A stretch of 41,117 nucleotides of DNA from a virus (taxonomy: Duplodnaviria; Heunggongvirae; Uroviricota; Caudoviricetes). Below the pieces are notes generated by a model, which saw only the letters and a list, made by a program, of their open reading frames with translations, searched no databases and had not been told where the DNA came from. The position numbers were made by a program, and so were the translations under genes. The stretch lies in the IMG/VR virus record IMGVR_UViG_2690316285_000010; one strand, given 5' to 3'. How positions within the stretch are numbered: position 1 is the stretch's first letter; the number at the start of each line of letters is the position of its first letter. Below, one piece after another: positions 1 through 41,117 of the stretch.

Positions 1-30
1 TCAAAGTGATCTACTATTCCGCGCAGCTAT

Positions 31-2999: not shown

Positions 3000-3108
3000 A
3001 TAAACACAAACAAAAATCAATAAGTTAGGTAATTATCAAAGACTTACAGACACACAAAAACACAGCCAACCACAACAAATAACAGAGATGTGGTCAATTT
3101 GTGGATCA

Positions 3109-4147: not shown

Positions 4148-4149
4148 AG

Positions 4150-5127: not shown

Positions 5128-5176
5128 TCGTGAAGCCCCAGCGTTACAAGACCACCATGCCCCCAGCGTTCCATGA

Positions 5177-5488
5177 TTAGCCGGGCTGTGTGCCAGTCTT
5201 GCGGGATTTTTGAGAAGACGATGTGTTTTCTGGCCCATCAGGGGAGAGAGAAGGACTGATCTGCCCAGCAGCCTCATTTGTTTCGTTACTCATCAACCAC
5301 GTAGTGTATTTTTTAAATTCCGGGTGCATTGTGATTTTCAGTAAAACCTCCGTTCCCACACCTCGAATACCAGTCTCGTATTGCTTAACCGTACCAACCG
5401 CAATACCTATTGAATCCGCGAACTTTGCCTGACTAAGCCCCTCAGATTCTCGAATTGCTTTTAGCTTCTTTGATATCTCTATTGACAT
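5177..5488 (-). CDS. P2 C-type immunity repressor (HTH)
   Basis: Small HTH protein (start at MSIEIS) upstream of and co-oriented with int, divergent from the early operon; resembles P2 C in size and layout. Confidence 0.7.
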   Translation of the reverse strand: MSIEISKKLKAIRESEGLSQAKFADSIGIAVGTVKQYETGIRGVGTEVLLKITMHPEFKKYTTWLMSNETNEAAGQISPSLSPDGPENTSSSQKSRKTGTQPG

Positions 5489-5511
5489 GGTGTGCACCTG
5501 AATACTATATT
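5482..5511 (+). promoter_or_regulatory. candidate sigma70 early promoter (Pe-like)
   Basis: TTGACA at 5482-5487, 18-bp spacer, TATATT at 5506-5511, facing the cox-like gene. Flanked by inverted GGTGTG...CCT...TA repeats at 5489-5504 and 5557-5575. Confidence 0.5.
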
Positions 5512-5583
5512 GGTTATCAGTTGAGTACCACTTGACGCTACAAAGAGCCACAAATAGCACCAGATTGAATAGGTTATCACACC

Positions 5584-5862
5584 ATGGCAAAAGTCCTTAA
5601 CACATACGAACAAGCGGATTTTGAGCGTTTGGCGGCGTTCTACCCATACCGTAATGAACATGGGCTACCGGTACTTGAAGAAAGCCTAGAGGATTATGCG
5701 AAACGCACAAATCAAAGCATTCTCGCTGTAAGAAGGCAGGCTGATAGATCGGTAATTCCCGTTACTCAAGAAGGAAGAAACACAAAACGCAAAGTAAATC
5801 TCTTCGCAATTTTCCTGAAAACCATCAGAAACGCAGAGAAATACGTGCAGATGACAAAATAA
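5584..5862 (+). CDS. putative Cox/Apl-like early regulator
   Basis: 92-aa first gene of the rightward early operon, divergent from the repressor; called by position only, sequence does not match P2 Cox as I remember it. Confidence 0.4.
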   Translation: MAKVLNTYEQADFERLAAFYPYRNEHGLPVLEESLEDYAKRTNQSILAVRRQADRSVIPVTQEGRNTKRKVNLFAIFLKTIRNAEKYVQMTK

Positions 5863-24988: not shown

Positions 24989-26421
24989 ATGAGTACCACA
25001 ACACGAAAATTTAAAACCATTATCACCGATACGGGTGCAAAAAAATTAGCGCAGGCAACCGCGCCAGATGGGAAACCTGTCCGCCTGACACATATGGCCG
25101 TGGGTGACGGCGGCGGTACTTTACCCACGCCAGACAGTAAGCAGACCCGTCTTGTGCATGAGGTGTGGCGACATACCGTTAATCGCGTCACCCTGGACGC
25201 AACACATCAGAACCACATTATTGCGGAGCTGGTTATTCCTCCTGAAACGGGCGGATTCTGGATCCGGGAAATTGGTGTGTTTGATGAGCACGGCGATTTG
25301 ATCGCGGTAGGCAATACTGCCGAAAGTTACAAGCCAACCGTTGCCGAAGGATCCGGACGTGCACAAACATTTCGCACCATTCTGACCGTATCCAGCACTG
25401 CCACTGTGGCGCTTACCGTGGATAACACCATGGTGATGGCCACAGTGAATTACGTGGATGACAAACTGAAAGAGCATGAACAGTCACGACGTCACCCGGA
25501 CGCCTCGCTGACCGCAAAAGGCCTTGTCCAGCTCAGCAACGCCACCAACAGCACGTCTGAAACGCTGGCAGCGACACCAAAAGCCGTTAAGGCAGTAATG
25601 GATGAAACGAACAAGAAAGCCCCATTAAACAGCCCGGCACTGACCGGAACGCCAACAACACCAACTGCGCGACAGGGAACGAATAATACCCAAATCGCAA
25701 GCACGGCTTTCGTTATGGCTGCGATTGCCGCACTTGTAGACTCTTCGCCTGATGCACTGAACACACTGAACGAGCTGGCGGCGGCGCTGGGCAACGACCC
25801 GAATTTTGCGACCACCATGACTAACGCGCTTGCGGGTAAGCAACCGAAAGATGCCACNTCTCAGAGCAAAGTTGCTGCTGAATCCGCGGCAACGCGCGCC
25901 GAGACAGCAGCAAAACGGGCAGAGGATATTGCATCCGCCGTGGCGCTTGAGGATGCGAGCACGACGAAAAAGGGGATAGTACAGCTCAGCAGTGCGACCA
26001 ACAGCACTTCCGAGTCACTGGCGGCAACGCCAAAAGCGGTTAAGGCGGTAATGGGTGAAACGAACAAGAAAGCGCCCTTAAATAGTCCTGCACTGACCGG
26101 AACGCCAACAACACCAACTGCGCGACAGGGAACGAATAATACCCAAATCGCAAGCACGGCTTTCGTTATGGCTGCGATTGCCGCCCTTGTAGATTCGTCA
26201 CCTGATGCACTGAACACGCTGAACGAGCTGGCTGCGGCGCTGGGCAACGACCCGAATTTTGCGACCACCATGACTAACGCGCTTGCGGGTAAGCAACCGA
26301 AAGATGCCACTCTGACGGCGCTGGCGGGGCTTGCTACTGCGGCAGACAGGTTTCCGTATTTTACGGGGAATGATGTCGCCAGCCTGGCAACCCTGACAAA
26401 AGTCGGGCGGGATATTCTTGC
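24989..26421 (+). CDS. H: tail fibre protein, constant N-terminal part (P2 gpH-like); 3' end lost at an N-run and IS4
   Basis: N-terminus MSTTTRKFKTIITDTGAKKLA... and the QLSSATNSTSE..LAATPKAVK segments match P2 H. Reading frame ends at ...VGRDIL, then N-run 26422-26430 and the IS4 end. Confidence 0.8.
25531..26307 (+). repeat. tandem duplication of about 327 bp within the tail fibre gene
   Basis: Unit 1 about 25531-25857 and unit 2 about 25981-26307, roughly 95% identical, encoding LS.ATNSTSE.LAATPKAVKAVM.ETNKKAPLNSPALTG...AGKQPKDA twice. A single N (25858) sits at the end of unit 1. Confidence 0.7.
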
Positions 26422-26426
26422 NNNNN

Positions 26427-27852
26427 NNNNGCCAGTCAGTTAAGCAACTGACTGGCTCTTTTTCGGGGCTGTGGGGTATTTCCAGGGCCTCTCCTTTACC
26501 ACTCTCGGGAAGGCCCTTTCCCTTCTCGTCGGTAATTTCACAAGTTGTCCCATACTTGCAAGATCGCGCATCAGCTCCGGTATACGTCCCGGTGAAGCGC
26601 CCTGCAATGTCATCAGCATTCTCATCACCATTCCGCATGATTCTGAGAAACTCAGTTGATTCGGCCAGTAACCTTTCAGATGTTCCGCCATTTTAATCAT
26701 CTGATATCTCACCAGATTATAAGCCAGTAAGACACCCCACAGCTCTTGCTCCACAAGCTCCGGCTTTTTACTTCTCAGCGTCAGCCTGCTCAGTTGCATC
26801 GTCTGTTTTATCTCCCTGTATCCCAGTTCGATTTCCCAGCGATGACTGTACAGATCCGCCATTTCTCCTCCGGGGAAGCGCATGGCGTCCGTCATCGACG
26901 TCAGCAGATGGCAGACTTTTCCTTTGCGCGTCACGGTCAGCAGGCGGGCTGTCACTTCATTTCCCAGTCCCGGCCACTTTTTTCGTGCCTGCGGGCTGGT
27001 TTTCAGCTTCACCAGATGATCGCCTTTACCCAGTTTTCTGAGCTCTTCATATTGCGCTCCCTTTCTGAGAGGTATCATCCAGTGGCGGTGTTCTCCCGCC
27101 AGGCTCCAGGCATTTAACAGTCCCAGTGAGTAATAACCTTTATCCATTAACGTCAGAGTGTTATCGCCGGTTTGTTCTATAAGTTGCTCAGCAAGCTCAT
27201 TTTCGCTGTTCTTCATCGTGCCGAAGGCTGCAGCCGTCAGCAGATGGCTGGTCAGTTCCATCTGGCAGACCATTTTGACCTGCGGGTAGAGCGCCGGGTT
27301 CCCGGCATGTGTCTGGCGGGGGAAGGCTGCATCGTTCTCTGGTGTATCCGGTGTGCGCCAGAACACACCATCGATGGCCAGCAGGGTCAGGCCGCACCAG
27401 TGCGGATGCGGCGTGGCGTTATGCCAGAGCTGCGCTGTTTTCGTGAACACGCGGCGGACAGCCTCACTTCCCAGGCGCTGGCGGGCCTGAATAACGGCAC
27501 TGGGGGCAACGAAGGGGCGATTGCCCGGCAGCATGATGTCCAGGCGATTCACAATCTGGTGAAGAGGTTCTTTACGCTCAAGCGCCATGCCAACAATACA
27601 CCAGACCATCATTTCGAGGGGAAGACGGCGCTTGCGTAGCGTTACAGTACCTGATTCGGCAAGGCAACGAGAGATGAGTTCGGGGTCGAGGTAATCCCCC
27701 AGAGAAGTCAGTGGGTTACGCAGAGAATCGTAACGGGATACCAGATCAAGAGCCTGTCCAATGTGCATAAAAAAATCCGGAAACAAGTGAGCGTTTCCGG
27801 ATTCTTACACAGCCACTGGATCGGTCAACTGATCCTTAACTGATCGGCATTA
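26427..27852 (-). mobile_element. IS4 insertion sequence
   Basis: Encodes a protein matching E. coli IS4 transposase; visible terminus at 27835-27852 reads TAATGCCGATCAGTTAAG (reverse complement), the IS4 inverted repeat as I remember it. The other end runs into N-run 26422-26430, so the start coordinate is approximate. Confidence 0.85.
26440..27768 (-). CDS. insG: IS4 transposase (DDE)
   Basis: 442-aa protein from [10 protein letters not shown]... matches IS4 InsG from memory; ORF-track start at 27786 is an upstream extension. Confidence 0.9.
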
Positions 27853-27978
27853 CTACTACAAGCTGAGTGTTAACGATCGCCCGTTGTGGGAGATTGACCT
27901 GCTGAACTTCATTTACCGGAAGGACGGCAGGGACATTGTGCCCGATCGCATCCGTTCCGCGCTCGGGCTTGGCTGATA
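27853..27978 (+). pseudogene. 3' remnant of tail tube gene (P2 gpFII-like), truncated by IS4
   Basis: Open frame ...NDRPLWEIDLLNFIYRKDGRDIVPDRIRSALGLG* directly abutting the IS4 end; resembles the C-terminus of P2 FII as I remember it (...EIDTINMIEKVNGVDRLEQHRRNIGL); sits just upstream of E as FII does in P2. Confidence 0.55.
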
Positions 27979-28030
27979 AGTAATATGCAGGCGGCGCAGT
28001 GCGTCGCCTCTGACTGAAAGGAGTTTCCTG

Positions 28031-28396
28031 ATGAAAGAGACGAAAAACATCGATACCGAAAACACGGTCGTTGCTGACACTGTGAAAGAAACCAGTGAGC
28101 GTGGCGTAAAACTTACCCAACCAATTGAGCGAGGCGGCGAAAAAATCACGTATGTGGAGATCACCGGGGCTATTGAGCAGGCTGGATCTCTGCGAGATTT
28201 GTCGCTGTCTGATGTGCTGAATTTGAAAGCGGAATCCATGTTTACGCTGCTGTCACGCGTGACATCACCGCGACTGGATGAAGTGACGATCAAAAAAATG
28301 GCATCCCGTGACTTTATTCAGTTATGTGTGGTTGCCGTAAATTTTTTGAGCGGTGCGGACTCTGGCGAGAAGAACGAACAGGCGACGGAAGCCTGA
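28031..28396 (+). CDS. E: tail assembly chaperone (P2 gpE-like)
   Basis: AAGGAG RBS; 121 aa; followed by overlapping -1 frame extension. Confidence 0.8.
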   Translation: MKETKNIDTENTVVADTVKETSERGVKLTQPIERGGEKITYVEITGAIEQAGSLRDLSLSDVLNLKAESMFTLLSRVTSPRLDEVTIKKMASRDFIQLCVVAVNFLSGADSGEKNEQATEA

Positions 28397-28560
28397 TCAC
28401 GGTTGTGTGCTTTGAGCACATAGAAGACTTTGTGGCGGATATTGCCGCCATTTTTAACTGGTCGCCCGCCGAAATCTTCATGATGACGCCCGGCGAAGTG
28501 GTTAGCTGGCGTGAGCGGGCGGCACTTCGCAGCGGGAATGCAGACAATGAAGACTCTTGA
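28031..28560 (+). CDS. tail assembly chaperone E+E' (-1 programmed frameshift product)
   Basis: Slippery heptamer T_TTT_TTG at 28342-28348 in the E frame; the -1 frame is open from there to 28560, as for P2 E/E'. Confidence 0.65.
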
Positions 28561-31135
28561 TATCCGGGTCGCTTTCAGCGCCGTTGACAGGCTGACCCGG
28601 CCTGCCGAAAACGCCCGCCGCCTGATGGGGCAGTTTGGTGACTCCATCCAGCGAACGCAGGGGGCGATCAAAAATCTCGAGCGTCAGGCGCGTTCATTTG
28701 AGCGCGCCCGTGACGCTGTCAGTAAAGCGGATGCGGGCATCGTGAAAGCACGACGCCAGCTTAACGCCCTTAATCAGTTACAACGCACGGGTACAGTGCT
28801 CAGCGAAAAACAACAAAAGCTGATGCAGCAGTTAAGCACCCGGCTTGAACGCCTGAATGAATCGCGCACACGGGAAATTCAGAAAATGCGGGAACTTGGC
28901 GGAGAGCTGAAACGCCACGGCATTTCCCTGACAGGCAGCGATAACACCATCCAGCAGGCCATCAGACGCACCGGACAATACAACAACCAGCTTGAACGCG
29001 AACGGCGGGCGCTTGCGCGTGTAACGCAGGCGCGTGAGCGGTATTCACGCGCGCAGGAAACAGCGGGAAAACTGAAAACAGGTGGTGCGCTGGCAACAGG
29101 TGCGGCGGCAGCGGGCGGCTATGCTGCCGGGCGTTTTTTGCAGCCCGCTATCGGGTTCGGGAAAGAGATGTCCCGTGTTCAGGCACTGACGCGAATCGAT
29201 AAAAACAGCCCGCAGTTTAAGGCGCTGCGTGAGCAGGCGTTAAAACTTGGCTCTGAAACGCAGTTCACCGCAGGCGATGCCGCCAGTGGACAGGCATTTC
29301 TTGCAATGGCTGGTTTCACACCGCAGGCCATTCAGGCTGCGCTTCCCGGCGTGCTGAGCATGGCAACGGCTGGCGGTATGGACCTCGGCGAGACGGCGGA
29401 TATTGGTTCCAATATCCTGACGCAGTTCGGCCTCTCTGCTGACCAGATGGACCGGGTCGGTGACACACTTACCGCAGCGTTTACCCGTACCAACACTGAC
29501 CTTCGCGCACTGGGCGAAACCATGAAATATGCAGGTCCGGTGGCGGGTAAGCTGGGAATATCGCTGGAGCAGGCCGCAGCGATGGCGGGCGTGCTGGCGA
29601 AGATGGGTATCAGGGGGAGTGATGCAGGTACAGCGTTGCGTAAAAGCCTGGCCAATCTGTCATCACCGCCAAAGGCAGCGGCAGAAGCACTGAAAGAGCT
29701 GGGGGTGTCAGTTGCTGACGCCAAAGGCAAAATGCGCCCGATGGAGAATGTGCTGGCCGATCTCTATAAAGCCACCCGCAAATACGGGGAGGTTGACCGG
29801 GTATCGTTCTTTAAGGACATTGCCGGAGAAGAGGCTTTCACATCATTTATGGGCCTCGTTGATGCGGCAGGTGACGGCTTCTTAGCCAAACTGAGAAAAG
29901 AACTTGAAGGCGCGCGCGGTGAGGCAGAACGCACGGCAAAGGTTATGGCCAATAACCTTGATGGCAACCTGAAATCACTCGGCAGTGCATGGGAAGGTCT
30001 GCGTATTCGCATCAGTGATCTGGTTGACGGTCCGCTGCGTTCTGTCACGCAGTGGCTCACGCGGGTTGTCTCAAAGGTGACGGCGCTGGCGCAGGCCCAC
30101 CCGGCACTGACGCGCCAGTTACTGATAGCGGGAGGCGCACTGCTGGCGACAACAGCAACGGTTGGTTCGTTGTCTCTGGTTATTGGGGTGCTTCACGGGA
30201 AGCTGGCTACGTTGCGTCTCGGTTTTTCTCTCCTGACCGAATCAATGAATGTTGTCAGGGTTCTGCCTGCATTATGGGGAATGGTGACGGGTTCCGTTTC
30301 TTTACTTGGTGGCGCTATCGGGGCGCTGTTCAGTCCGGTTAGTCTTATCGTGGCTGCGCTTGCCGGAGCTGCCGTTCTTATCTGGAAATACTGGGATCCC
30401 ATCAGGGCATTTTTTGCCGGGGTGTTCAGCGGGATTATGGAAAGGCTGACCCCGTTGCGCGAAACCTTTGAACGGTTTGGCCCTGTTTTTGATGTCGTGC
30501 GCGATGGGATTATTCAGGTCTTTAACTGGTTTAAATCGCTGCTGTCACCGATGGAGTCCAGCAAGGAAACGCTGGATAAATGTGCCAGTGCTGGCGAGAT
30601 ATTCGGTAACGTTCTTGGCGGTGCGTTACAACTTGTTCTGACACCTGCAAAAATGCTACTGGATACGCTGGCGTGGATACTTGAAAAACTTGGCGTCCTT
30701 CCGGATGAAGCGGAAAGGGCGCGCAAGAAAATCGAAGACGCACAGCGTGCGGCCATTCTTCAGGACAAGGTTGCCTTGCTTCAGGGGGACCTGGCGAAAA
30801 TCAATCCGCCGAAGCCTGTGGAAAATGGCAATGGCACCGGAGGTGATAAACCCAAAGACAACAAACCGCTCACAGACAGCAATACCGGGACGCTACGCAG
30901 ACTCAGCAAAATTGCTGATAACACAGGTAAGCTGGTTGATGAGACGAAAAAACGCATTGGCCCCGGCGATATTGTCTTTAAGAACCTGCCCCGCGCACTT
31001 GCTGTTCGTGGGGAGTGGCAGGAGCGGAAGATTGCGCAGGTCAGTAAGCCTGCCCCCGCAATTAATATCACACCCGTGGTCCCGGCTCCGCTGCCTCCGG
31101 CGCTGGTCCCTGTTGTTGCGGCCAGCTCCCGCCCG
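28511..31135 (+). CDS. T: tail tape measure protein (P2 gpT-like), 3' end hidden in N-run
   Basis: Long alpha-helical Ala/Gly-rich protein with hydrophobic central segments; 875 codons before N-run 31136-31361. Start codon uncertain (GTG 28511 or ATG 28538/28547). Confidence 0.8.
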
Positions 31136-31363
31136 NNNNNNNNNNNNNNNNNNNNNNNNNNNNNNNNNNNNNNNNNNNNNNNNNNNNNNNNNNNNNNNNN
31201 NNNNNNNNNNNNNNNNNNNNNNNNNNNNNNNNNNNNNNNNNNNNNNNNNNNNNNNNNNNNNNNNNNNNNNNNNNNNNNNNNNNNNNNNNNNNNNNNNNNN
31301 NNNNNNNNNNNNNNNNNNNNNNNNNNNNNNNNNNNNNNNNNNNNNNNNNNNNNNNNNNNNNTC

Positions 31364-31858
31364 ATGGCCATGATGATGATCTACGGCATGTTTGTTTTTG
31401 AGCTGCGTACATTGCCGCATCAGCAGTTACAGCAAAACAAAAGCTGGCGGCATGTGAAAAATGAACGCGTTAACCGTTCGGCAAGCTGGCAGTATATCGG
31501 TGCAGGTGATGAGCGCATCGTTCTTTCTGGTGTGCTTTATCCTGAAATTACAGGTGGCGAAGTGTCGCTGTCGCTGCTGACCACGCAGGCGTATACAGGA
31601 CGACCCTGGCCTCTGATTGATGGCGTCGGGCAGATTTACGGCATGTATGTCCTGACCGAAACGAATACGACCCGCTCCGAGTTTGATCGCTACGGTAAGG
31701 CGAAAAAGATAGAATTTTCACTGACTCTTGAACGCTGTGATGAGGATTTGCGGGAGCGCCTGCAATCCTCATCGTTCAGCGATATGCTGTCCGGCTTCAA
31801 AGATAAGGTAACATCATCCCTTAACAGCGCGGCCAGTTCAGTTAAAGGGTTGTTCTGA
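31364..31858 (+). CDS. U: tail protein (P2 gpU-like)
   Basis: MAMMMIYGMFVFELRTLPHQQLQQNKSWRH... vs P2 U MMMVLGLFVFMLQTVPYQELQYQRNWRH...; begins immediately after the N-run. The ORF track fuses T, the gap and U into one 1115-aa ORF. Confidence 0.8.
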   Translation: MAMMMIYGMFVFELRTLPHQQLQQNKSWRHVKNERVNRSASWQYIGAGDERIVLSGVLYPEITGGEVSLSLLTTQAYTGRPWPLIDGVGQIYGMYVLTETNTTRSEFDRYGKAKKIEFSLTLERCDEDLRERLQSSSFSDMLSGFKDKVTSSLNSAASSVKGLF

Positions 31859-31871
31859 TTTAACACAAAAA

Positions 31872-31904
31872 CCGCTAATGGTCAGATTAGCGGTTATTTT
31901 GTTT
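31872..31904. terminator. bidirectional rho-independent terminator between U and the invertase gene
   Basis: CCGCTAAT-ggtcag-ATTAGCGG hairpin with T-tracts on both sides (TTATTTTGTTT on plus, TTTTTGTGTTA on minus). Confidence 0.6.
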
Positions 31905-32481
31905 CCTGACTCTTCTCTATTGTTCCGATTGATTCTCCTGCGGGGTGGTAACGATAAATCGTCGATATACCAATGCCGTAAATTATTGCCAGTTGTTTTC
32001 TGTCGTGCCCGTTTTTGATCAGCCTTGCTATTTGCTCATGCTGTTCTTTTGTCAGCTTCGGTCGACGTCCGCCTGTGCGCCCCCGTGCGCGTGCTGCCGC
32101 CAGTCCGGCCAGTGTACGTTCAACAATTAATTCACGTTCCATTTCAGCCAGGGCACCCATCACGTGGAAGAAAAAACGCCCCATTGGAGAAGATGTATCT
32201 ATGCTGTCGGTCAGACTGCGAAAATTAATTCCTCGCTCCCGTAGTTCCCCGACGAGAGAAATCAGATGTTTCATGCTTCGCCCGAGGCGATCCAGTTTCC
32301 AGACAACCAGCGTGTCACCTTTTTGAAGGCGCTTTAAAGCGCGTTTTAATCCCGGTCGGTCTGTCTTTGTCCCGCTTAATTTATCTTCAAATATTTGTTC
32401 ACATCCTGCACAAACAAGAGCGTTTCGTTGCAGGTCTGTATTCTGGTCATTTGTTGATACCCTTACATAGCCAATCAGCAC
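31894..32481 (-). CDS. pin: serine DNA invertase (Pin/Gin/Cin/Min family)
   Basis: [36 protein letters not shown]... is close to e14 Pin through the catalytic domain (Ser in VRVSTNDQ), C-terminal HTH diverged. Start placed at GTG 32479-32481; ORF track uses TTG at 32499. Confidence 0.88.
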   Translation of the reverse strand: MLIGYVRVSTNDQNTDLQRNALVCAGCEQIFEDKLSGTKTDRPGLKRALKRLQKGDTLVVWKLDRLGRSMKHLISLVGELRERGINFRSLTDSIDTSSPMGRFFFHVMGALAEMERELIVERTLAGLAAARARGRTGGRRPKLTKEQHEQIARLIKNGHDRKQLAIIYGIGISTIYRYHPAGESIGTIEKSQETK

Positions 32482-32535
32482 GCTGAATCTCCCGTCCAAA
32501 AGCGCAAATCATGCCATGCAGGCCGGAAACGGCCA

Positions 32536-32561
32536 TTATCTAAAACCTCGGTTTACAGGAA
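32536..32561. other. invertase crossover site (gix/pix-like), site 1
   Basis: TTATCTAAAACC-TC-GGTTTACAGGAA: two 12-bp inverted half-sites around a 2-bp core, near-identical to the Mu gix site as I remember it; 55 bp from the invertase start. Confidence 0.8.
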
Positions 32562-32670
32562 ACGGTAAACAAGGCTGGTAACGCCGTGCAAAAAAATGGC
32601 GATACGTTGTCCGGTGGACTTACTTTTGAAAACGACTCAATCCTTGCCTGGATTCGAAANNNNNNNNNNN

Positions 32671-33260
32671 TCTTCTATTGTACGACGGTGTTCGTCAAAA
32701 GCTAATTGTCGCCAGGGACTTTCGAATGAGTATTTGCTGAGCCAGCGTCGGTGTGCAGGGCCCCAATCTGCTCGCCCGACATAATGGACCCCATGAACCA
32801 GAAGAAACGATTTCAGACGTTGCCTTGCATGCCGTAAATCATCGCGGGCAGATGCCCATGCCCGGGCCAAATCCCGGAATGCCTCATCTTCAATGCCGGG
32901 TACGTAGACAGCAGAAAGATCTCCTGCACGCAGTGAACGCACAAGTCTGATGGCATCACGGCGATCGGTTTTAACCCGCTCCCCCGGTTTTTTCGGGATA
33001 AGTGAGGGGGCGCAGACCATGCAGTCAAAACCGGATTTCACCAGCCGACGATAAAGTCCATAACCACAGGGCCCCGCTTCATAAACGATACTGACCTGCG
33101 ATGACTTTGACCTGAGACGTTTACAAAGATTCTGAATATCAGTAGGTGATGTGCCAATTTTACCCATCAGTTCAACAGGTTCTGAATTGATAGCATAAGC
33201 GACAGTAATCGATTCTTTGTGAACATCTAACCCGACGTACAATGTGTTATTGTTGTTCAT
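32671..33260 (-). mobile_element. 5' part of an IS110-family (DEDD) transposase gene, cut off by N-run 32660-32670
   Basis: N-terminus MNNNNTLYVGLDVHKESITVAYA... is typical of IS110-family transposases (and related Piv-type invertases). Only about 196 codons precede the gap. Confidence 0.6.
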
Positions 33261-33386
33261 GCTGGCCTCCGTGGTGGAAATACCGGGGTGTAGCAACAGC
33301 TCACCCATGCGGCTCTGACAACGATGTTAACCCGCGTTAAATATCCCACGTTGGCCAGCATCTGTCTCACGGAAAGTCATACTGCC

Positions 33387-33656
33387 TTACATTGTGTCTG
33401 GTTCTTCCGGCCACTCAATATCAGGTGCAGTTGATGTATCAACACGGTTCAGCAACACCCGATACTTCTTCCAGGCTTCCAGCAACGAGTTTTCTTCCTC
33501 CGTTGCGATCTCCAGATCTACAGCATCCTGAAGTGGCGCAATATGCTCACTGAATTCCTGGATGTAGAACTGTGTGGTGACGGTCTTCCAGCCATTCGGC
33601 TCCTGCTGTATCGAAGCATACCAGGCTATTTCAATATCGCTATGCTGCGGCAGCAT
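33387..33656 (-). CDS. short tail-fibre-assembly-like protein (C-terminal domain only)
   Basis: 89-aa ORF ending ...[28 protein letters not shown], the conserved C-terminus of Tfa proteins; N-terminal half unlike the other Tfa copies here. Confidence 0.5.
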
Positions 33657-33712
33657 TTAACCCCTTGTAATTCATCGCCATAATTGATTTAATTCACAAA
33701 TAAAACTATAAT

Positions 33713-34381
33713 ATGGTGAAATTAATGAAAAAAAACACAGATGATGGGGCTAAAATTTACACACCACTTACCCTAAAGCTTTATGACTGGTGGGTTTTGG
33801 GAGTATCAAATCGGCTTGCATGGGGATGTCCTACAAAGGAACACCTTCTTCCACACTTTCTGGAACATTTAGGTAACAACCATCTGGATATTGGTGTTGG
33901 AACTGGGTTTTACCTTACTCACGTACCTGAGAGTAGTCTGATATCTTTAATGGATTTGAACGAAGCTAGCCTGAACGCGGCATCTACAAGGGCTGGGGAA
34001 TCAAAAATTAAACATAAAATTAGCCATGATGTTTTTGAACCTTATCCCGCGGCGTTACATGGTCAATTTGATTCCATTTCCATGTTTTACCTTCTTCACT
34101 GCCTGCCTGGAAATATATCTACAAAAAGCTGTGTAATACGCAATGCGGCGCAGGCCTTAACTGATGATGGAACTCTATACGGAGCCACAATTCTTGGCGA
34201 TGGAGTTGTGCACAATAGCTTCGGTCAAAAACTGATGCGCATTTACAATCAGAAAGGCATCTTTTCAAACACAAAAGATTCCGAAGAAGGCTTAACACAT
34301 ATACTCTCAGAGCATTTCGAGAATGTTAAAACCAAGGTTCAAGGTACTGTAGTAATGTTTTCCGCTTCAGGGAAAAAATAG
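33713..34381 (+). CDS. class I SAM-dependent methyltransferase (substrate unknown)
   Basis: 222-aa ORF with motif I LDIGVGTGF; AT-rich coding sequence; followed by a hairpin CCGCAGCACGT...ACGTGCTGCGG at 34390-34422. Confidence 0.6.
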   Translation: MVKLMKKNTDDGAKIYTPLTLKLYDWWVLGVSNRLAWGCPTKEHLLPHFLEHLGNNHLDIGVGTGFYLTHVPESSLISLMDLNEASLNAASTRAGESKIKHKISHDVFEPYPAALHGQFDSISMFYLLHCLPGNISTKSCVIRNAAQALTDDGTLYGATILGDGVVHNSFGQKLMRIYNQKGIFSNTKDSEEGLTHILSEHFENVKTKVQGTVVMFSASGKK

Positions 34382-34579
34382 CATCCAACCGCAGCACGTT
34401 CTTGCTTAAGACGTGCTGCGGCATAATCCCAATGATTACTCCCTGACAGGGTTCGTAGGCCACTCAATATCAGGTGCAGTTGATGTATCAACACGGTTCA
34501 GCAACACCCGATACTTTTTCTAGGCTTCCACCACCAGCACGACAAGATGCCGCATACAGTGACCCAGTCAGTCCAGTTT

Positions 34580-34780
34580 TCAGACAACCAGTGCGTCACC
34601 TTTTTGAAGGCGCTTTAAAGCACGTTTTAATCCAGGTCGGCCTGTCCTTGTTCCGCTTAATTTATCTTCAAATATTTGTTCATATCCTGCACAAACAAGA
34701 GCGTTTCGTTGCAGGTCTGTATTCTGGTCATTTGTTGATACCCTTACATAGCCAATCAGCACGCTGAATCTCCCGTCCAA
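34580..34780 (-). pseudogene. diverged 5' fragment of a second invertase gene (about 66 codons)
   Basis: Translates to [19 protein letters not shown]...LQKGDALVV*; differs from the intact pin at several nucleotides (C->Y, K->R, D->G, T->A), so it is not an assembly duplicate. Confidence 0.6.
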
Positions 34781-34816
34781 AAGCGCAAATCATGCCATGC
34801 AGGCCAGAAACCGCCA

Positions 34817-34832
34817 TTATCTAAAACCTCGG
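34817..34832. other. crossover site 2 (left half visible; rest in N-run)
   Basis: TTATCTAAAACCTCGG then N-run 34833-34923; sequence after the gap resumes CGGTTTACGAGAAC..., a variant right half. Confidence 0.5.
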
Positions 34833-34923
34833 NNNNNNNNNNNNNNNNNNNNNNNNNNNNNNNNNNNNNNNNNNNNNNNNNNNNNNNNNNNNNNNNNNNN
34901 NNNNNNNNNNNNNNNNNNNNNNN

Positions 34924-35897
34924 CGGTTTACGAGAACTCGGCACAAGCGGGGAGAAAATACCGTTACTCAGTACAGCGAATACCTGGACTAATCGACAAA
35001 CATTCAGCGGTGGCCTTTCTGGTGAACTATCCGGCAATGCTTCTACAGCTNNNNNNNNNNNNNNNNNNNNNNNNNNNNNNNNNNNNNNNNNNNNNNNNNN
35101 NNNNNNNNNNNNNNNNNNNNNNNNNNNNNNNNNNNNNNNNNNNNNNNNNNNNNNNNNNNNNNNNNNNNNNNNNNNNNNNNNNNNGTGCGTTTGCCTTAGG
35201 GAAAACAGGAAGCACCGTTGCGAATGATAAAGCAGTTGGATGGAACTGGAGTAGCGGAGCCTATAACGCAACTATTAGTGGTGCATCAACGTTAATTATT
35301 CATTTTTATAATTAATCCGAAACTGAGCTGCAGGACAACTTCCTTCTCCCATATAAAAATGGCGGTATTTTTTATCGTTCAGCCCGTGATGGTTATGGTT
35401 TTGAAGCCGACTGGTCCGAATTTTACACCACCAGAAAACCTTCAGCAGGAGATGTTGGTGCACTGCCGTTATCTGGTGGTCAACTGAATGGTGCACTGGG
35501 TATCGGAACATCCAGTGCTCTTGGCGGTAATTCGATTGTATTGGGTGATAATGACACGGGCTTTAAACAAAAAGGCGATGGTAATCTGGATGTTTATGCT
35601 AATAACGTCCATGTTATGCGCTTTGTCTCCGGAAGCATTCAAAGTAATAAAACCATAAATATTACGGGACGTGTTAATCCCTCGGATTACGGTAACTTTG
35701 ATTCCCGCTATGTGAGAGATGTCAGACTTGGCACACGAGTTGTTTAGACCATGAAGAAAGGCGTGATGTATGAAAAATCAGGCCATGTAATCACGGGGCT
35801 TGGTATTATCGGTGAAGTCGATGGTGATGATCCGGCAGTATTCAGACCAATACAAAAGTTAATTAACGGAACATGGTATAACGTATCGCAGGTATAA
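34924..35897 (+). pseudogene. tail fibre variable C-terminal domain (P2 H-like type), disrupted
   Basis: Encodes ...TWTNRQTFSGGLSGELSGNASTA, (gap 35051-35184), ...[21 protein letters not shown]..., ...[18 protein letters not shown]...[18 protein letters not shown]. Interrupted by a 41-bp inversion (35311-35351) and an in-frame TAG at 35745. Confidence 0.6.
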
Positions 35898-35899
35898 TC

Positions 35900-36131
35900 A
35901 TGCAGCATTTAAAAAACATTGTCGCAGGTAATCCAAAAACCGTTGAACAATACCAGCTAACAAAGAATTTTGATGTTATCTGGTTATGGTCCGAAGATGG
36001 AAAAAATTGGCATGAGGAATTAAAAAACTTTCAGGAGGATACAATAAAACTGGCTTACACAGTTGAGGGAATAATTATTGCTATAGACAAGGATGTATCA
36101 GCAATTAATCCAGAAGGTTTAAGTGTCGTTG
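35900..36131 (+). CDS. tail fibre assembly protein, N-terminal part (P2 gpG-like), cut off by N-run
   Basis: [37 protein letters not shown]... matches the Tfa/P2 G N-terminus; ends at N-run 36132-36142. Confidence 0.65.
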
Positions 36132-36142
36132 NNNNNNNNNNN

Positions 36143-36450
36143 CCGGTCGGTCTGTCTTTGTCCCGCTTAATTTATCTTCAAATATTTGTTCACATCCTGC
36201 ACAAACAAGAGCGTTTCGTTGCAGGTCTGTATTCTGGTCATTTGTTGATACCCTTACATAGCCAATCAGCACGCTGAATCTCCCGTCCAAAAGCGCAAAT
36301 CATGCCATGCAGGCCGGAAACGGCCATTATCTAAAACCTCGGTTTACAGGAAACGGTAAACAAGGCTGGTAACGCCGTGCAAAAAAATGGCGATACGTTG
36401 TCCGGTGGACTTACTTTTGAAAACGACTCAATCCTTGCCTGGATTCGAAA
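36143..36450. repeat. exact 308-bp copy of 32352-32659 (invertase 5' end plus crossover site 3 at 36327-36352)
   Basis: Base-for-base identical to 32352-32659 by eye; each copy has an N-run on one side. Confidence 0.8.
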
Positions 36451-37363
36451 TACTGACTGGGCAAAGATTGGGTTTAAAAATAATTCGGATGCAGACACCG
36501 ATTCCTACATGTGGTTTGAAACAGGCAACAACGGCAATGAATATTTCAAATGGAGACACCGCATCATTGGCACCCGGCCTAAAGACCTGATGAATCTTAA
36601 ATGGAATGCTTTGTCTGTTCTTGTTGAAGCCCTTTTCAGCAGTGAAGTGAAAATATCGACAGTCAATGCACTGAGGATATTTAATTCATCTTTTGGTGCC
36701 ATTTTTCGTCGTTCTGAAGAATGCCTGCATATCATCCCTACACGAGAGAATGAAGGGGAAAATGGTAATATAGGGCCACTACGCCCCTTTACGCTTAATC
36801 TCAGAACTGGCCGGATAAGCATGGGGCATGGTCTTGATGTTACAGGGGATATATTTGCAAACCGTTTTGCAATTAACAGTAGTACCGGCATGTGGATTCA
36901 TATGCGTGACCAGAATGTTATTTTGGGACGTAATGCGGTATCCACTGATGGTGCTCAGGCTTTGCTCCGTCAGGACCATGCCGACCGCAAATTTATGATT
37001 GGCGGTCTGGGAAATAAGCAATTTGGCATCTACATGATTAATAACTCAAGGACAGCCAATGGCACCGATGGTCAGGCGTACATGGATAATAACGGGAACT
37101 GGCTTTGCGGCTCGCAAGTTATTCCCGGCAACTATGGCAATTTTGATTCCAGATATGTGAAAGATGTTCGACTTGGTTCACAGCAATATTATGGAGTGAA
37201 CAACTGGCAAACATGGAATTTTCAGTGCCCGTCAGGCTATGTACTGACGGGGATTAACGTACAGGATACCGGAAAAAACTCTGCCGATAATATTGCAGGC
37301 GTTCATTACAGGCCAGTGCAAAAGTATATAAATGGCACTTGGTATAATGTGGCGAGTATTTAA
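36377..37363 (+). CDS. tail fibre variable C-terminal domain, cassette A
   Basis: Frame is open from within the crossover site ([19 protein letters not shown]...) to ...[17 protein letters not shown], the conserved tail-fibre tip end; would be expressed only when fused to the constant part. Confidence 0.7.
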
Positions 37364-37364
37364 T

Positions 37365-37892
37365 ATGATGCACTTAAAGAACATAAAAGCAGGTAATGCT
37401 AAAACAGTGGAGCAGTATGAGTTAACAAAGAAGCACGGAGTCATCTGGCTTTACTCTGAGGACGGAAAAAACTGGTATGAGGAAGTGAAGAACTTTCAGC
37501 CAGACACAATAAAGATTGTTTACGATGCAAATAATATTATTGTCGCCATCACCAAAGATGCCTCCACGCTTAACCCTGAAGGTTATAGCGTCGTTGAGGT
37601 TCCTGATATTACAGCTAATCGTCGTGCTGATGATTCCGGTAAGTGGATGTTTAAGGACGGAGCTGTGGTTAAACGGATTTATACGGCTGACGAACAGCAA
37701 CAACAGGCCGAATCACAAAAGGCCGCATTGCTTTCCGAAGCTGAATCAGTCATCCAGCCGCTGGAACGCGCTGTCAGGCTGAATATGGCAACAGACGAGG
37801 AACGCACACGACTGGAAGCATGGGAACGCTACAGTGTTCTGGTCAGCCGTGTGGATACGGCAAAGCCAGAATGGCCACAAAAGCCTGAGTAA
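37365..37892 (+). CDS. tail fibre assembly protein, cassette A
   Basis: [11 protein letters not shown]... to ...[26 protein letters not shown]; start 2 nt after the variable-domain stop. Confidence 0.8.
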
Positions 37893-37912
37893 AAATTAAG
37901 GCCCGATANNNN

Positions 37913-37938
37913 NNNNNNNNNACCTCGGTTTACAGGAA
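37913..37938. other. crossover site 4 (left 9 bp inside N-run 37909-37921)
   Basis: Visible part ACCTCGGTTTACAGGAA identical to sites 1/3, followed by the same [15 protein letters not shown] junction frame. Confidence 0.6.
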
Positions 37939-37983
37939 ACGGTAAACAAGGCTGGTAACGCCGTTCAGCGTTCCGGCGATAAA

Positions 37984-38879
37984 ATGACCGGAGAACTGAA
38001 AATTGGCACGGTGAATGCGCTGCGAATTTTCAATGATACCTTCGGTCTAATTTTCCGTCGTTCAGAAGATTTTCTTCATTTCATTCCGACGGCTGAAGGA
38101 CAAGGCGAAAACGGTAATATCGGCCCATTAAGGCCATTCGCTATAAATCTGAGAACAGGTGCTATATCTGTCAGCCACGGGGCCAAAATTAAAGGAGGTC
38201 TAGCTATTGGAGCTACTGATAACGCACTGGGTGAAAACTCCATTGTTCTGGGAGATAACGACACCGGATTTAGGCAAGATGGAGATGGTATTATTAGCTT
38301 CTATTCAAATGGTTCGCGCATCGGACATATTGATGAGTTAGGATTACATCTTTATAAAGATNNNNNNNNNNNNNNNNNNNNNNNNNNNNNNNNNNNNNNN
38401 NNNNNNNNNNNNNNNNNNNNNNNNNNNNNNNNNNNNNNNNNNNNNNNNNNNNNNNNNNNNNNNNNNNNNNNNNNNNNNNNNNNNNNNNNNNNNNNNNNNN
38501 NNNNNNNNNNNNNNNNNNNNNNNNNNNNNNNNNNNNNNNNNNNNNNNNNNNNNNNNNNNNNNNNNNNNNNNNNNNNNNNNNNNTGGTGCGCAAGTTGCGT
38601 CTAGTGGCGATATTTATGGTTCAGTGTGGGAAAACAACTGGTTAAGCACATGGCTGCATAATCATGTCGTTCGGGATATTCGTCTTGGCAGCATTGAATA
38701 TAAAAACGTATNNNNNNNNNNNNNNNNNNNNNNNNNGCGACTACGGCTTTGGCGATGCGTCAGGTTATGTTTTAACAGCCGCAATTAACAGCAATGCGGA
38801 TGATATTGTCGACACTGTTGCCAGAAGGCCAATTCAGAAATTGATTGGGGGAATATGGTACAACGTGGGGAGTGTTTAA
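37984..38879 (+). CDS. tail fibre variable C-terminal domain, cassette B (two internal N-runs)
   Basis: ...[22 protein letters not shown]... to ...[18 protein letters not shown]; N-runs 38362-38583 and 38712-38736 fall inside. Confidence 0.65.
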
Positions 38880-38880
38880 G

Positions 38881-39408
38881 ATGATGCACCTGAAAAATAT
38901 TAAGGCCGGGAATCCGAAAACACCGGAACAATACCAGCTAACTAAAAAAGCGGGCGTGGTATGGCTCTTTTGCGAAGATGGCAAAAACTGGTATGAGGAA
39001 CAAAAGAATTTTCAGCCAGACACCATAAAAATTGCTTACGATGAGAACAACATCATCGTTGCTGTCAGTAAAGACGTTTCAACTATTAATCCTGAAGGGC
39101 TAAGCATAGTTGAAGTTCCTGATATTACGGCAAATCGTCACGCAGACAATAACGGAAAATGGATGTTTCTGGATGGTAAAGTAGTAAAGAGGGAATATAC
39201 AGAACAGGAACTGCAACAACAGGCCGAATCACAAAAGGCCGCATTGCTTTCCGAAGCTGAATCAGTCATCCAGCCGCTGGAACGCGCTGTCAGGCTGAAT
39301 ATGGCAACAGACGAGGAACGCACACGACTGGAAGCATGGGAACGCTACAGTGTTCTGGTCAGCCGTGTGGATACGGCAAATCCTGAATGGCCACAAAAGC
39401 CTGAATAA
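38881..39408 (+). CDS. tail fibre assembly protein, cassette B
   Basis: [30 protein letters not shown]... full-length Tfa, same C-terminal half as cassette A. Confidence 0.8.
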
Positions 39409-39440
39409 AAATTAAGGCCCGATAGCGGGCCTTCTCTCAT
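39409..39440. terminator. bidirectional terminator between convergent Tfa genes
   Basis: GGCCCG-atag-CGGGCC hairpin at 39419-39434 with T-rich flanks on both strands; the same hairpin half precedes N-run 37909. Confidence 0.55.
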
Positions 39441-40146
39441 TCTGGTTGTTCGGGAAACGTTACTGGCAGGCTGGAGGTGTCTGTGGATTCAACCTTCTGC
39501 GCATAGAGCATCCACTCGGTTAATTTTTGTTTATTCTCGTCGGAAATAATGCCCAGCCGTAGCTGTGAGTCCCATAGCTGGGTTTTATCCCTGACGAGCT
39601 GTAGCAGGCTTTGCTTTTCATTTTCCGCTTGTTGCCTCTGCTCTTCCCCGGTATAAGTTCGCTTTATCACTACGCCATCTTTGAACATCCATTTACCTGA
39701 AATATCAGCCCGGCGATTTGCTGTAATATCAGGCAACTCAACGACACTNNNNNNNNNNNNNNNNNNNNNNNNNNNNNNNNNNNNNNNNNNNNNNNNNNNN
39801 NNNNNNNNNNNTTGCTCTTCCTCGGTATAAGTTCGCTTTATCACCGCACCATCTTTGAACATCCAGTTGCCCGAAATATCAGCCCGGCGATTTGCTGTAA
39901 TATCAGGAACCTCAACGACGCTTGCGCCTTCCGGATTAATTGCTGAAACATCCTTTTCAATACAAATAATAACGCCGTTGTGGTCATAGACCATTTTCAA
40001 CGTATCAGGCTGAAAGTTCTTTTGTTCCTCATACCAGTTTTTCCCATCCTCTGTATAAAGCTATTTGATGTTAAATTGTTTCGTTAGCTGGTATTGCTCT
40101 TTTGTTTCAGGATTACCAGCAGAAATGTTTTTTAAGTGCATCATCG
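39437..40146 (-). pseudogene. tail fibre assembly protein, cassette C (in-frame TAG and N-run)
   Basis: Minus-strand reading [36 protein letters not shown]...: TAG where the other copies have TGG (plus 40061-40063). N-run 39749-39811 is flanked by about 90% identical 100-bp sequences. Confidence 0.6.
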
Positions 40147-41117
40147 TTAAATACTCCCCGCGTTATACCACGTCCCATTAATGCAATACTGAATTGGCCT
40201 TGCCTGAGTTGTATCAATTAGTTCATCTCTGTTTGAGTTAACGGAACCGGTAACAACATAACCTGACCTGTCAGACCATCCGGGACCATTCCATGTCTGA
40301 ACAGATAACAGACCACCAAGGCGAATACCTGTAATAAACCTTGAGTTACATTCTGCCTGCGTATATGCACCAACATCTCCCGCAGAGGGTTTGCGGGTTG
40401 TGGTGTAAAACTCTGACCAGTCAGCTTCAAAGCCATAACCATCACGCGCTGAACGATAAAAAATACCGCCGTTCCTGTAATTCACGCGGAACTGTACAGC
40501 AGGGCAGCTCCCCGTATTCATATTGAAGTGGAGGATTAATGTCGATGCGCCACCAATGTTTGCGTTATAGACCCCGCTATTCCAGTTCCAGCCAACAGCT
40601 TTATCATTTCCGACAGTGCTTCCTGTTTGCCCTAAAGCAAATGCAGGTTGTTGATTTTTCGTGTTGTAGTCTCGTCGCCAGCCAGGAGCGTAAGCATCAC
40701 CATGATTAATATAAGTGAATTGAGCGTTAGTAATTCCGCCACCGCTGGACGTGCTCGGCGTGGTAACGCGTATGGTCATTGCGCCGCGAGTGCCAATAAC
40801 TTCCACCACAGCACCTGCAAGACAAATATTTCCGCAACCTGTATCTGTAATGACCTTATTATTTGCATAAGCCCATGAGCCTTTGCACATCCAGTAAGGA
40901 TGGTTAAATGCTCCCTGACTCTCCAGCCACGAAATAAATTGCGCGGTTGTCCAGACCTGACTATCGCCACCAATATTCAGCCATGAGCTATATGCGCGGC
41001 AGGCACCAATATTTTTGGTGAAGGTATCTTTCCCCGGAATATCTGCGCCGTTCTGGTTTTTCTGTAATGCGCCAGAAGCCTGATTTACCGTTTCCTGTAA
41101 ACCGAGGTATTCGATAA
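40147..41117 (-). CDS. tail fibre variable C-terminal domain, cassette C (5' end at window edge)
   Basis: Minus-strand frame open from crossover site 5 ([18 protein letters not shown]...) to ...[17 protein letters not shown]; ORF track lists 40147-40890 from an internal Met. Confidence 0.7.
41092..41117. other. crossover site 5, inverted relative to sites 1/3/4
   Basis: Plus strand TTCCTGTAAACCGAGGTATTCGATAA = reverse complement of TTATCGAATACC-TC-GGTTTACAGGAA. Confidence 0.75.

What the first reader, a model, noticed from the sequence alone, without database searches (positions are those of the whole stretch)
31858..32481. Invertase gene lies convergent to U where P2 has D and ogr
The sequence from U through the shared terminator into pin is contiguous with no N-run, so this adjacency is real in the assembled molecule. 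In P2 the late gene D and the late activator ogr follow U; neither is seen anywhere in the window. This implies either a phage lineage with a different tail-module layout or a rearrangement that moved the inversion module here.
Basis: partly seen in the sequence, partly recalled or inferred. Interest (0 to 1): 0.45.

Follow-up and report, generated by a model that had tools for sequence, protein, structure and literature searches.

The report
Ordinary P88-type prophage tail-gene layout
The invertase gene sitting tail-to-tail with tail gene U is the normal, already catalogued gene order of P88-like relatives of phage P2, and D and ogr are missing from the window because they lie beyond the sheath gene and this draft assembly breaks at an IS4 inserted in the tube gene.

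Summary
gpU (31364-31858, +) and a Gin/Pin-type serine invertase (31894-32481, -) are convergent, 35 nt apart, with a two-way terminator hairpin (31870-31895) between them. No D, ogr or FI homologue is in the window.

It is not unusual. The same junction occurs in 619 of 5,426 complete E. coli genomes and in the inducible phage P88 (genus Xuanwuvirus). There the order is H-G | G'-H' | inv(+) | U-T-E-FII-FI(-) | D(+)-ogr(+). The FI-to-U block is inverted relative to P2 and Fels-2, so D and ogr follow FI, not U. Forty of 55 species-representative loci with a related gpU show this split.

The window is 99.9-100% identical to the Shigella sonnei prophage next to fecD, which has D and ogr beyond FI in complete genomes. 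In the window, FII is cut by an IS4 (junction 27852/27853).

The N-runs are scaffold gaps, not masks. Right of about 25.8 kb the scaffold interleaves contigs from two different tail-fibre loci, so long-range order there is unreliable. The finding itself sits on a 1,298-nt contig.

Verdict: already known, low interest.

The parts
26427..27852 (-). IS4 copy (transposase ORF 26440-27786). Its left terminus is partly hidden by the 9-N gap at 26422-26430. Its right terminus abuts FII codon ~128.
   Evidence: 98-99% nucleotide identity to annotated IS4 elements. The terminal sequence ...cggcatta ends at 27852. The junction was not found in 5,426 E. coli genomes or in three public collections.
27854..27976 (+). 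3' remnant of the tail tube gene FII: last 40 codons plus stop.
   Evidence: Pfam Phage_tube, profile positions 129-165 of 165, E=3.5e-7. 90.7% identical to the P88 FII C-terminus.
28031..28396 (+). gpE-like tail assembly chaperone. The E' / GpE-family part follows at about 28405-28560.
   Evidence: tblastn with P2 E gives E=2e-9. Position matches 'phage tail protein E' and 'GpE family' in E. coli strain 605.
28547..31135 (+). Tape measure gene T. Its last ~220 nt fall in the scaffold gap at 31136-31361.
   Evidence: Pfam PhageMin_Tail E=1.2e-57. 100% identical to S. sonnei 53G over 27853-31135.
31364..31858 (+). gpU, an essential P2-family tail protein and the last gene of the late FI-to-U operon in this lineage.
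   Evidence: Pfam Phage_P2_GpU E=7.7e-39. 98.8% identical to P88 U.
31870..31895 (.). Two-way intrinsic-terminator-like hairpin shared by U and pin. It overlaps the pin stop codon by 2 nt.
   Evidence: Hairpins of unrelated sequence occupy the same position in other genera.
31894..32481 (-). pin, a Gin/Pin/Cin/Hin-family serine DNA invertase of 195 aa with Ser9.
   Evidence: Resolvase plus HTH_7 domains. 86% identical to Mu Gin and 74% to the Fels-2 invertase. The identical protein is indexed in 2,066 blocks of the public assembly collection.
32536..32563 (+). Invertase-proximal crossover site, TTATCTAAAACCTCGGTTTACAGGAAAC, joined to the start of one tail-fibre C-terminal cassette (32564-32659).
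   Evidence: 0 matches expected by chance. One base different from Mu gix in the alignment.
36143..36450 (+). Exact second copy of 32352-32659 (pin codons 43 to 1, crossover site, cassette start) at the start of the next tail-fibre contig. Most likely the same locus assembled twice.
   Evidence: 100% identity over at least 300 nt (family D1). In S. sonnei draft L010 the two pieces form one continuous sequence.
41090..41117 (-). H-proximal crossover site, TTATCGAATACCTCGGTTTACAGGAAAC, in inverted orientation at the very end of the window.
   Evidence: Identical to the H-side site of P88 and of S. sonnei genomes.

Best explanation
The window holds a Shigella sonnei-type prophage of the P88 kind (Peduoviridae, genus Xuanwuvirus).

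In this lineage the late tail operon FI-FII-E-E'-T-U is inverted relative to P2 and Fels-2. It sits between the tail-fibre inversion module and D: V W J I H G | G' H' | inv(+) | U T E FII FI(-) | D(+) ogr(+). U is therefore natively convergent with the invertase gene, and the two share a two-way terminator that stops each transcript from reading antisense into the other.

Pin flips the tail-fibre C-terminus and chaperone cassettes between inverted 26-28-bp crossover sites, which switches host range. This function is inferred from 86% identity to Mu Gin, near-identical sites, and both orientations being seen in near-identical genomes.

D and ogr are absent from the window for a separate reason. 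They lie beyond FI, and in this strain an IS4 is inserted in FII. The draft assembly breaks there and is then mis-scaffolded through repeats. The IS4/FII junction is shown directly; the simple-insertion reading and the location of FI-D-ogr on another contig are inferred.
For: - The junction at 31362-32659 is present at >=80% coverage in 619 of 5,426 complete E. coli genomes. It is also in phages P88, 503458, 520873, P884B11 and Citrobacter Shae_phiSM.
- The P88 annotation plus an unannotated ogr ORF give the layout above.
- All 10 contexts shown for the identical Pin protein, and PGAP-annotated E. coli strain 605, show the invertase convergent with U and D divergent from FI. Nine of those ten, and strain 605, also carry ogr after D.
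- 40 of 55 species-representative loci with a related gpU have D and ogr divergent from FI, and 9 have a convergent invertase right after U.
- Fels-2 and P2 show the contrasting co-linear order.
- P88 is an inducible, plaque-forming phage (PMC5285337).
- The window is 99.9-100% identical to S. sonnei prophage loci whose complete genomes carry FII, FI, D and ogr.
- The N-runs are scaffold gaps, because contig ends overlap in complete genomes.
- Contigs c6-c8, c10-c12 and 25859-26421 are contiguous in a different, lambdoid locus in L007.
Against: - The source assembly could not be found, so FII 5'-FI-D-ogr on another contig is inferred rather than seen.
- The scaffold places H next to the other end of the IS4. 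This is equally compatible with a real inversion between two inverted IS4 copies.
- No P2-type Ogr site (TGT-N12-ACA) was found in the P88 FI/D intergenic region, so regulation of the split operon is not explained here.
Confidence: 0.87

Rival explanations
1. A real IS4-mediated inversion in this strain. Two inverted IS4 copies, one in H just before the crossover site and one in FII, recombined. This flipped the whole FII'-E-T-U-pin-cassette block so that it now runs in the same direction as H, as the scaffold draws it.
For: - IS4 is flanked on one side by H (P88 ~23805) and on the other by FII (P88 31602).
- The visible flanks share no target-site duplication.
- The H contig (ends at P88 ~23805) and the last contig (ends at P88 23826) both stop within about 20 nt of one point in H, as expected if an IS sits there.
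Against: - The H|IS4 join lies across a 9-N scaffold gap, and other gaps in this scaffold are demonstrably unreliable.
- The 563 nt before that gap match a different locus better: 98.8% to L007 against 94% to the prophage's own H.
- Both isomers would give identical junction sequences, so short-read contigs cannot tell them apart.
- Even if true, the U/pin adjacency and the position of D and ogr beyond FI are unchanged.
Confidence: 0.1
2. A strain-specific rearrangement or deletion moved the inversion module next to U and removed D and ogr.
For: D, ogr and FI are absent from the window. The region is rich in IS elements (IS4, and an IS110-family fragment at 32671-33408).
Against: The same U/terminator/pin junction at 96-100% identity is in hundreds of genomes and in functional phages that carry intact D and ogr elsewhere. 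The adjacency therefore predates this strain.
Confidence: 0.02
3. The U/pin adjacency is an assembly chimera.
For: The contig is only 1,298 nt long. It sits in a badly scaffolded, repeat-rich region and shares a 308-nt exact overlap with another contig.
Against: The identical arrangement is in closed genomes: S. sonnei 53G, CP032523 and E. coli strain 605.
Confidence: 0.01

Closest known systems
Escherichia phage P88 (NC_026014; Peduoviridae, Xuanwuvirus) and the near-identical Shigella sonnei / E. coli prophages
   Same: Colinear at 91-98% nucleotide identity over window 5913-26421 and 27853-32576. Same invertase|U convergent junction and terminator, same crossover sites, same tail-fibre cassettes.
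   Different: - The window has a different integrase/repressor module, about 43% and 35% identical to P88.
- It has an IS4 in FII.
- It lacks FI, D and ogr within the window.
- The block is drawn in the opposite orientation by the scaffold.
Salmonella phage Fels-2 (NC_010463; Felsduovirus)
   Same: A P2-family phage with an H-G | G'-H' invertible tail-fibre segment and a Gin/Pin-type invertase that is 74% identical.
   Different: In Fels-2 the invertase is followed by FI-FII-E-T-U-D-ogr, all co-directional. The invertase abuts FI, and D follows U.
Phage P2 (NC_001895)
   Same: Homologous E, T, U (47% identity), H, G, integrase and C proteins.
   Different: P2 has no invertase. FI-FII-E-E'-T-U-D form one operon followed by ogr. 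Here U ends its operon and D is not downstream.
Phage Mu G-segment / Gin system, and the E. coli e14 Pin system
   Same: The invertase is 86% identical to Gin. The crossover site differs from Mu gix by one base. The 5' gene region is almost identical at the DNA level. The logic is the same: alternative tail-fibre C-termini plus chaperones.
   Different: The phage backbone differs: P2-family here, against the transposable phage Mu and the lambdoid e14. The gene downstream of the invertase is gpU rather than com/mom.

Membership tests
P88-like phages (Peduoviridae, genus Xuanwuvirus) | High nucleotide identity and colinearity with P88 across the genome | tested here: met
   Window 5913-26421 and 27853-32576 align to P88 at 91-98% identity. 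The integrase/repressor end and the FI-D-ogr end are not represented.
P88-like phages (Peduoviridae, genus Xuanwuvirus) | Invertase gene convergent with gpU at the end of an inverted FI-to-U operon | tested here: met
   The junction is 97.9% identical to P88.
P88-like phages (Peduoviridae, genus Xuanwuvirus) | D and ogr divergent from FI | not testable with these tools
   FI, D and ogr are not in the window, and the source assembly could not be located. The feature is present in 99.9%-identical S. sonnei prophages (loci L021 and L024).
Canonical P2 F-operon layout (Peduovirus) | gpD immediately downstream of gpU on the same strand, followed by ogr | tested here: not met
   Downstream of U are a terminator and an oppositely oriented invertase gene. 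There is no D or ogr signal in the window.
Gin/Pin/Cin/Hin serine DNA invertases | N-terminal resolvase catalytic domain with the active-site serine (Ser9 in Gin) and a C-terminal HTH | tested here: met
   Pfam Resolvase E=1.5e-50 and HTH_7 E=1.8e-13. The sequence MLIGYVRVS9 is identical to Gin.
Gin/Pin/Cin/Hin serine DNA invertases | Inverted ~26-bp crossover sites flanking the invertible segment, one next to the invertase gene | tested here: met
   Sites at 32536-32563 (+) and 41090-41117 (-), with 0 expected by chance. Their spacing in the window is unreliable because of the scaffolding.
Gin/Pin/Cin/Hin serine DNA invertases | Fis-dependent recombinational enhancer in the 5' part of the invertase gene | tested here: inconclusive
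   The first ~150 nt of the coding region differ from Mu gin at only two positions in the alignment. No Fis-site analysis or functional test was done. That the enhancer lies there in Mu is from general knowledge.
Gin/Pin/Cin/Hin serine DNA invertases | The segment is actually found in both orientations | tested here: met
   Near-identical S. sonnei genomes carry either cassette fused to H. L003, L024 and L007 show one state; L021 and the window show the other.
IS4 | About 1.4-kb element with IS4 termini and an IS4-family transposase | tested here: met
   98-99% identity to annotated IS4. A 448-aa ORF at 26440-27786. Right terminus at 27852. The left terminus is partly hidden by a gap.

The most novel reading that the evidence does not exclude
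The scaffold order is genuine. In this strain the Pin invertase (or IS4 recombination) has joined the P88-like prophage's tail-fibre module to that of a separate lambdoid prophage remnant carrying identical crossover sites. This would be a phage-invertase-driven inter-prophage, possibly chromosome-scale, rearrangement that also stranded FI-D-ogr elsewhere.
Probability: 0.05. Interest if true: 0.35.

Novelty: already known. Interest (0 to 1): 0.08.

Why it matters
It matters little biologically. The layout is that of a named phage genus and of hundreds of sequenced prophages.

The practical value is for annotation:
- P2 is a poor template for gene order in P88-type and many other Enterobacterales P2-family prophages. 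In these, D and ogr should be sought beyond FI, not after U.
- N-runs in this kind of window are scaffold gaps, so order and orientation across them should not be read as biology.

The prophage in this strain is probably defective, because its tail tube gene is interrupted by IS4.

Tried and rejected
- I searched the strain-specific IS4|FII junction (40-mer) in genome contigs, viral contigs and metagenome contigs. All gave 0 hits. A 401-nt query across the junction found no E. coli genome covering it.
- I tried to find the source assembly by exact-protein look-ups: a 247-aa fibre cassette, the methyltransferase, Pin, a 174-aa cargo protein and the 30-aa FII remnant. They returned related genomes but not the source, and the remnant is not on record.
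- I considered that the N-runs were same-length masks. This is rejected: flanking contig ends overlap by 3-10 nt in complete genomes, and gap sizes disagree with the true distances (91 N for -3 nt, 134 N for 82 nt).
- I considered P88 gp53 as an Ogr homologue. This is rejected (only a weak DUF4177 match). The real ogr is an unannotated ORF after D.
- I looked for the P2 Ogr-binding dyad TGT-N12-ACA in the P88 FI/D intergenic region. None was found.
- The 1,115-aa ORF at 28511-31858 is an artefact of reading T and U together across the N gap.

Full report
**1. What is at the coordinates.**
- The interval 31858-32481 runs from the last base of the stop codon of a + strand gene to the GTG start of a - strand gene.
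- The + strand gene (31364-31858) is a P2 gpU homologue. It matches Pfam Phage_P2_GpU at E=7.7e-39, and is 47% identical to P2 U and 98.8% to P88 U.
- The - strand gene (31894-32481) is a serine DNA invertase. It matches Resolvase at E=1.5e-50 plus HTH_7. It is 86% identical to Mu Gin, including the Ser9 motif, and 74% identical to the Fels-2 invertase.
- The two stop codons are 35 nt apart. Between them a 10-bp-stem hairpin (31870-31895) is followed by T-runs on both strands. The free energy is about -16 kcal/mol, with z = -4.1 and -5.2 against shuffles.
- There is no N between 31362 and 32659.
- tblastn with P2 and P88 D, Ogr and FI proteins finds nothing credible in the window. Of FII, only the last 43 residues match at 27845-27973, and the last 40 codons lie outside IS4.

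**2. The adjacency is the native layout of a known lineage.**
- The 1,298-nt stretch containing U, the terminator, pin and the crossover site is found at >=80% coverage in 619 of 5,426 complete E. coli genomes.
- It is also in catalogued phages: P88, 503458, 520873, P884B11 (genus Xuanwuvirus) and Citrobacter Shae_phiSM, at 96-98% identity.
- The P88 record gives this order: V W J I H G (+), G' H' (-), invertase (+), U T E' E FII FI (all -), D (+).
- An 86-aa Ogr/Delta-like ORF directly follows D at L001 34476-34736. The record does not annotate it.
- All ten contexts shown for the identical Pin protein show the invertase convergent with U and D divergent from FI. Nine of them also carry an Ogr_Delta gene after D. 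PGAP-annotated E. coli strain 605 shows the full arrangement.
- P88 is an inducible phage that forms plaques (PMC5285337), and the Citrobacter relative is active (PMC6456863). The layout is therefore functional.
- Invertase-driven tail-fibre switching in P2-like prophages of E. coli, including a three-site system, has been demonstrated by sequencing (PMC4272514).

**3. Comparison of layouts.**
- P2 has one F operon, FI-FII-E-E'-T-U-D, followed by ogr, and no invertase.
- Fels-2 has the invertible tail-fibre segment and an invertase, followed co-directionally by FI-FII-E-T-U-D-ogr.
- The P88 type equals the Fels-2 type with the FI-to-U block inverted. The invertase abuts U instead of FI, and D is split from the operon and diverges from FI.
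- I surveyed 55 species-representative genome loci that encode a relative of this gpU (analysed).
  - 40 have ogr(-) D(-) | FI(+)...U(+). They include Salmonella, Enterobacter, Kosakonia, Serratia, Pantoea, Klebsiella, Citrobacter, Edwardsiella, Providencia, Morganella, Photorhabdus, Xenorhabdus and Symbiopectobacterium.
  - Only 7 have U followed by D. These are distant loci with U at most 46% identical: Idiomarina, Acinetobacter, Chitinimonas and Halomonas.
  - 8 could not be scored.
- Nine of the loci have a serine invertase convergent within about 60-270 nt of U. Most of these, and the window, carry a GC-rich hairpin of unrelated sequence in that gap.
- The split layout is therefore old and widespread in Enterobacterales. 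U|invertase appears wherever such an element carries an inversion module.

**4. How it works.** This is inferred from homology, with the stated support.
- Pin recombines inverted crossover sites. The pin-proximal site is 32536-32563 (TTATCTAAAACCTCGGTTTACAGGAAAC). The H-proximal site is 41090-41117 on the minus strand (TTATCGAATACC...). Zero matches are expected by chance.
- The site differs from Mu gix by one base. The 5' part of the gene is almost identical to gin at the DNA level. In Mu that region carries the Fis-dependent enhancer; this is general knowledge and was not tested here.
- Inversion exchanges the C-terminal part of tail-fibre protein H and its assembly chaperone.
- Near-identical S. 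sonnei genomes carry either cassette fused to H, so inversion does occur.
- The two-way terminator ends the late FI-to-U transcript and the pin transcript. This prevents either from reading antisense into the other.

**5. Why D and ogr are missing from the window.**
- The window is 99.9-100% identical to the S. sonnei prophage integrated next to fecD. The matching loci are L030 (CP026836), L031 and L021 (CP032523), and L003 (S. sonnei 53G).
- In the complete genomes FII, FI and D follow on. Ogr and hok are seen in L021 and L024, where a PIN_4-domain cargo gene lies between D and ogr.
- In the window, FII is cut at codon ~128 by the terminus of an IS4 (junction 27852/27853, inside an N-free contig).
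- That junction is absent from 5,426 E. coli genomes and from three public collections. It is strain-specific.
- Everything upstream of the cut (FII 5', FI, D, ogr) would lie beyond a multicopy IS, where short-read assemblies break.

**6. The N-runs are scaffold gaps, and the scaffold is unreliable right of about 25.8 kb.**
- Against complete genomes, the sequences either side of the N-runs overlap or are separated by a different distance.
  - Window 15981|16002 corresponds to L031 13824|13817.
  - Window 16191|16218 corresponds to L031 14006|13998.
  - Window 34832|34924 corresponds to L029 7424|7422, yet the gap holds 91 N.
  - Window 35050|35185 is 82 nt apart in L029 and L007, yet the gap holds 134 N.
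- The finding's contig (31362-32659) shares its last 308 nt exactly with the first 308 nt of contig 36143-37908. In S. sonnei draft L010 the two form one continuous sequence.
- The contigs placed between them are 32671-36131. They hold an IS110-family transposase fragment, tfa', the DLP12-type ybcY methyltransferase, a decayed pin fragment, and a fibre cassette with its chaperone.
- Most of that stretch belongs to a lambdoid prophage remnant. The remnant lies near trp-yciEFG-ompW in E. coli AST205.
- In L007 this material is contiguous with the reverse complements of 37922-39748 and of 25859-26421.
- In complete S. sonnei genomes the order is H-5', site, cassettes (contigs 36323-37908 and 39813-41117), site, pin, U, T, E, FII, FI, D. 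That is the canonical P88 layout.
- The scaffold therefore interleaves two tail-fibre loci.

**7. What remains open.**
- I cannot decide whether the FII'-E-T-U-pin block is truly inverted relative to H in this strain through two inverted IS4 copies.
- The H|IS4 join is hidden in a 9-N gap, and both isomers would have identical junction sequences.
- The visible flanks of the IS4 share no target-site duplication. This fits either a misjoin or a rearrangement.
- Neither outcome changes the conclusion about the U/pin adjacency.

**8. Verdict.**
- The second interpretation (the inversion module moved here) is not supported.
- The absence of D and ogr comes from that layout plus an IS4 insertion and draft scaffolding.
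- Novelty: already known. Interest: low.

Noticed in passing
window N-runs at 15982-16001, 16192-16217, 25858, 26422-26430, 31136-31361, 32660-32670, 34833-34923, 35051-35184, 36132-36142, 37909-37921, 38362-38583, 38712-38736, 39749-39811: The N-runs are scaffold gaps of inaccurate length, not same-length masks. In complete genomes the flanking contig ends overlap by 3-10 nt or lie at different distances. Order and orientation across them cannot be trusted.
   Followed up: yes
window 25859-26421, 32671-36131, 37922-39748: These contigs belong to a second, lambdoid tail-fibre locus and are interleaved with the P88-like prophage's own tail-fibre contigs. That locus holds a decayed pin fragment, the ybcY-type methyltransferase at 33713-34381, and its own crossover site at ~37913-37940. 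In S. sonnei draft FUCQ01000048 (L007) most of this material is contiguous in a different order.
   Followed up: partly
window 26427-27976: An IS4 interrupts tail tube gene FII, leaving 40 codons next to the IS4 end, so the prophage is probably tail-defective. The junction appears strain-specific. No target-site duplication is visible on the other flank.
   Followed up: partly
window 32671-33408: The N-terminal half of an IS110-family (DEDD) transposase gene, with the ORF ending at 33308 on the minus strand. It is cut at a scaffold gap. Its other end abuts the lambdoid tfa' remnant at 33408/33409.
   Followed up: no
window 32352-32659 and 36143-36450: An exact 308-nt duplicate covering pin codons 43 to 1, the crossover site and 96 nt of the fibre cassette. 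A comparable odd duplicate occurs in another S. sonnei draft contig (L010 1364-2242). Mixed inversion states in sequenced cultures may confuse assemblers here repeatedly.
   Followed up: partly
L001 (phage P88 NC_026014) 34476-34736: An 86-aa Ogr/Delta-type zinc-finger ORF directly after D is not annotated in the RefSeq record. The gp53 'hypothetical protein' is not Ogr-like.
   Followed up: yes
L001 33176-33332: The divergent FI/D intergenic region of P88 has no P2-type Ogr dyad (TGT-N12-ACA), and the whole P88 genome has only 2 such matches (8.5 expected by chance). The late-promoter architecture of the split operon is unexamined.
   Followed up: partly
L021 17692-19194 and L024 17692-19194 (S. 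sonnei complete genomes): A 500-aa PIN_4-domain cargo gene sits between D and ogr in the S. sonnei version of the prophage. It is absent from P88 and from most of the E. coli copies examined.
   Followed up: no
window 28511-31858: The mechanical 1,115-aa ORF is an artefact that fuses tape measure T and U in frame across the 226-N gap. The true distance in S. sonnei 53G is 223 nt.
   Followed up: yes
window 1-5600: The prophage left end lies next to a FecCD-family gene (1936-2916, -). The integrase (about 4150-5127, -) and repressor are only about 35-45% identical to those of P2 and P88, so this is a different immunity and integration module on an otherwise P88-like backbone.
   Followed up: partly
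L042 (NZ_JBQPOM010000071.1, labelled Vagococcus sp.): A contig in a Vagococcus (Firmicutes) assembly carries a prophage tail region 97-99% identical in U, FI, D and Ogr proteins to this enterobacterial prophage. It is probably contamination of that assembly.
   Followed up: no
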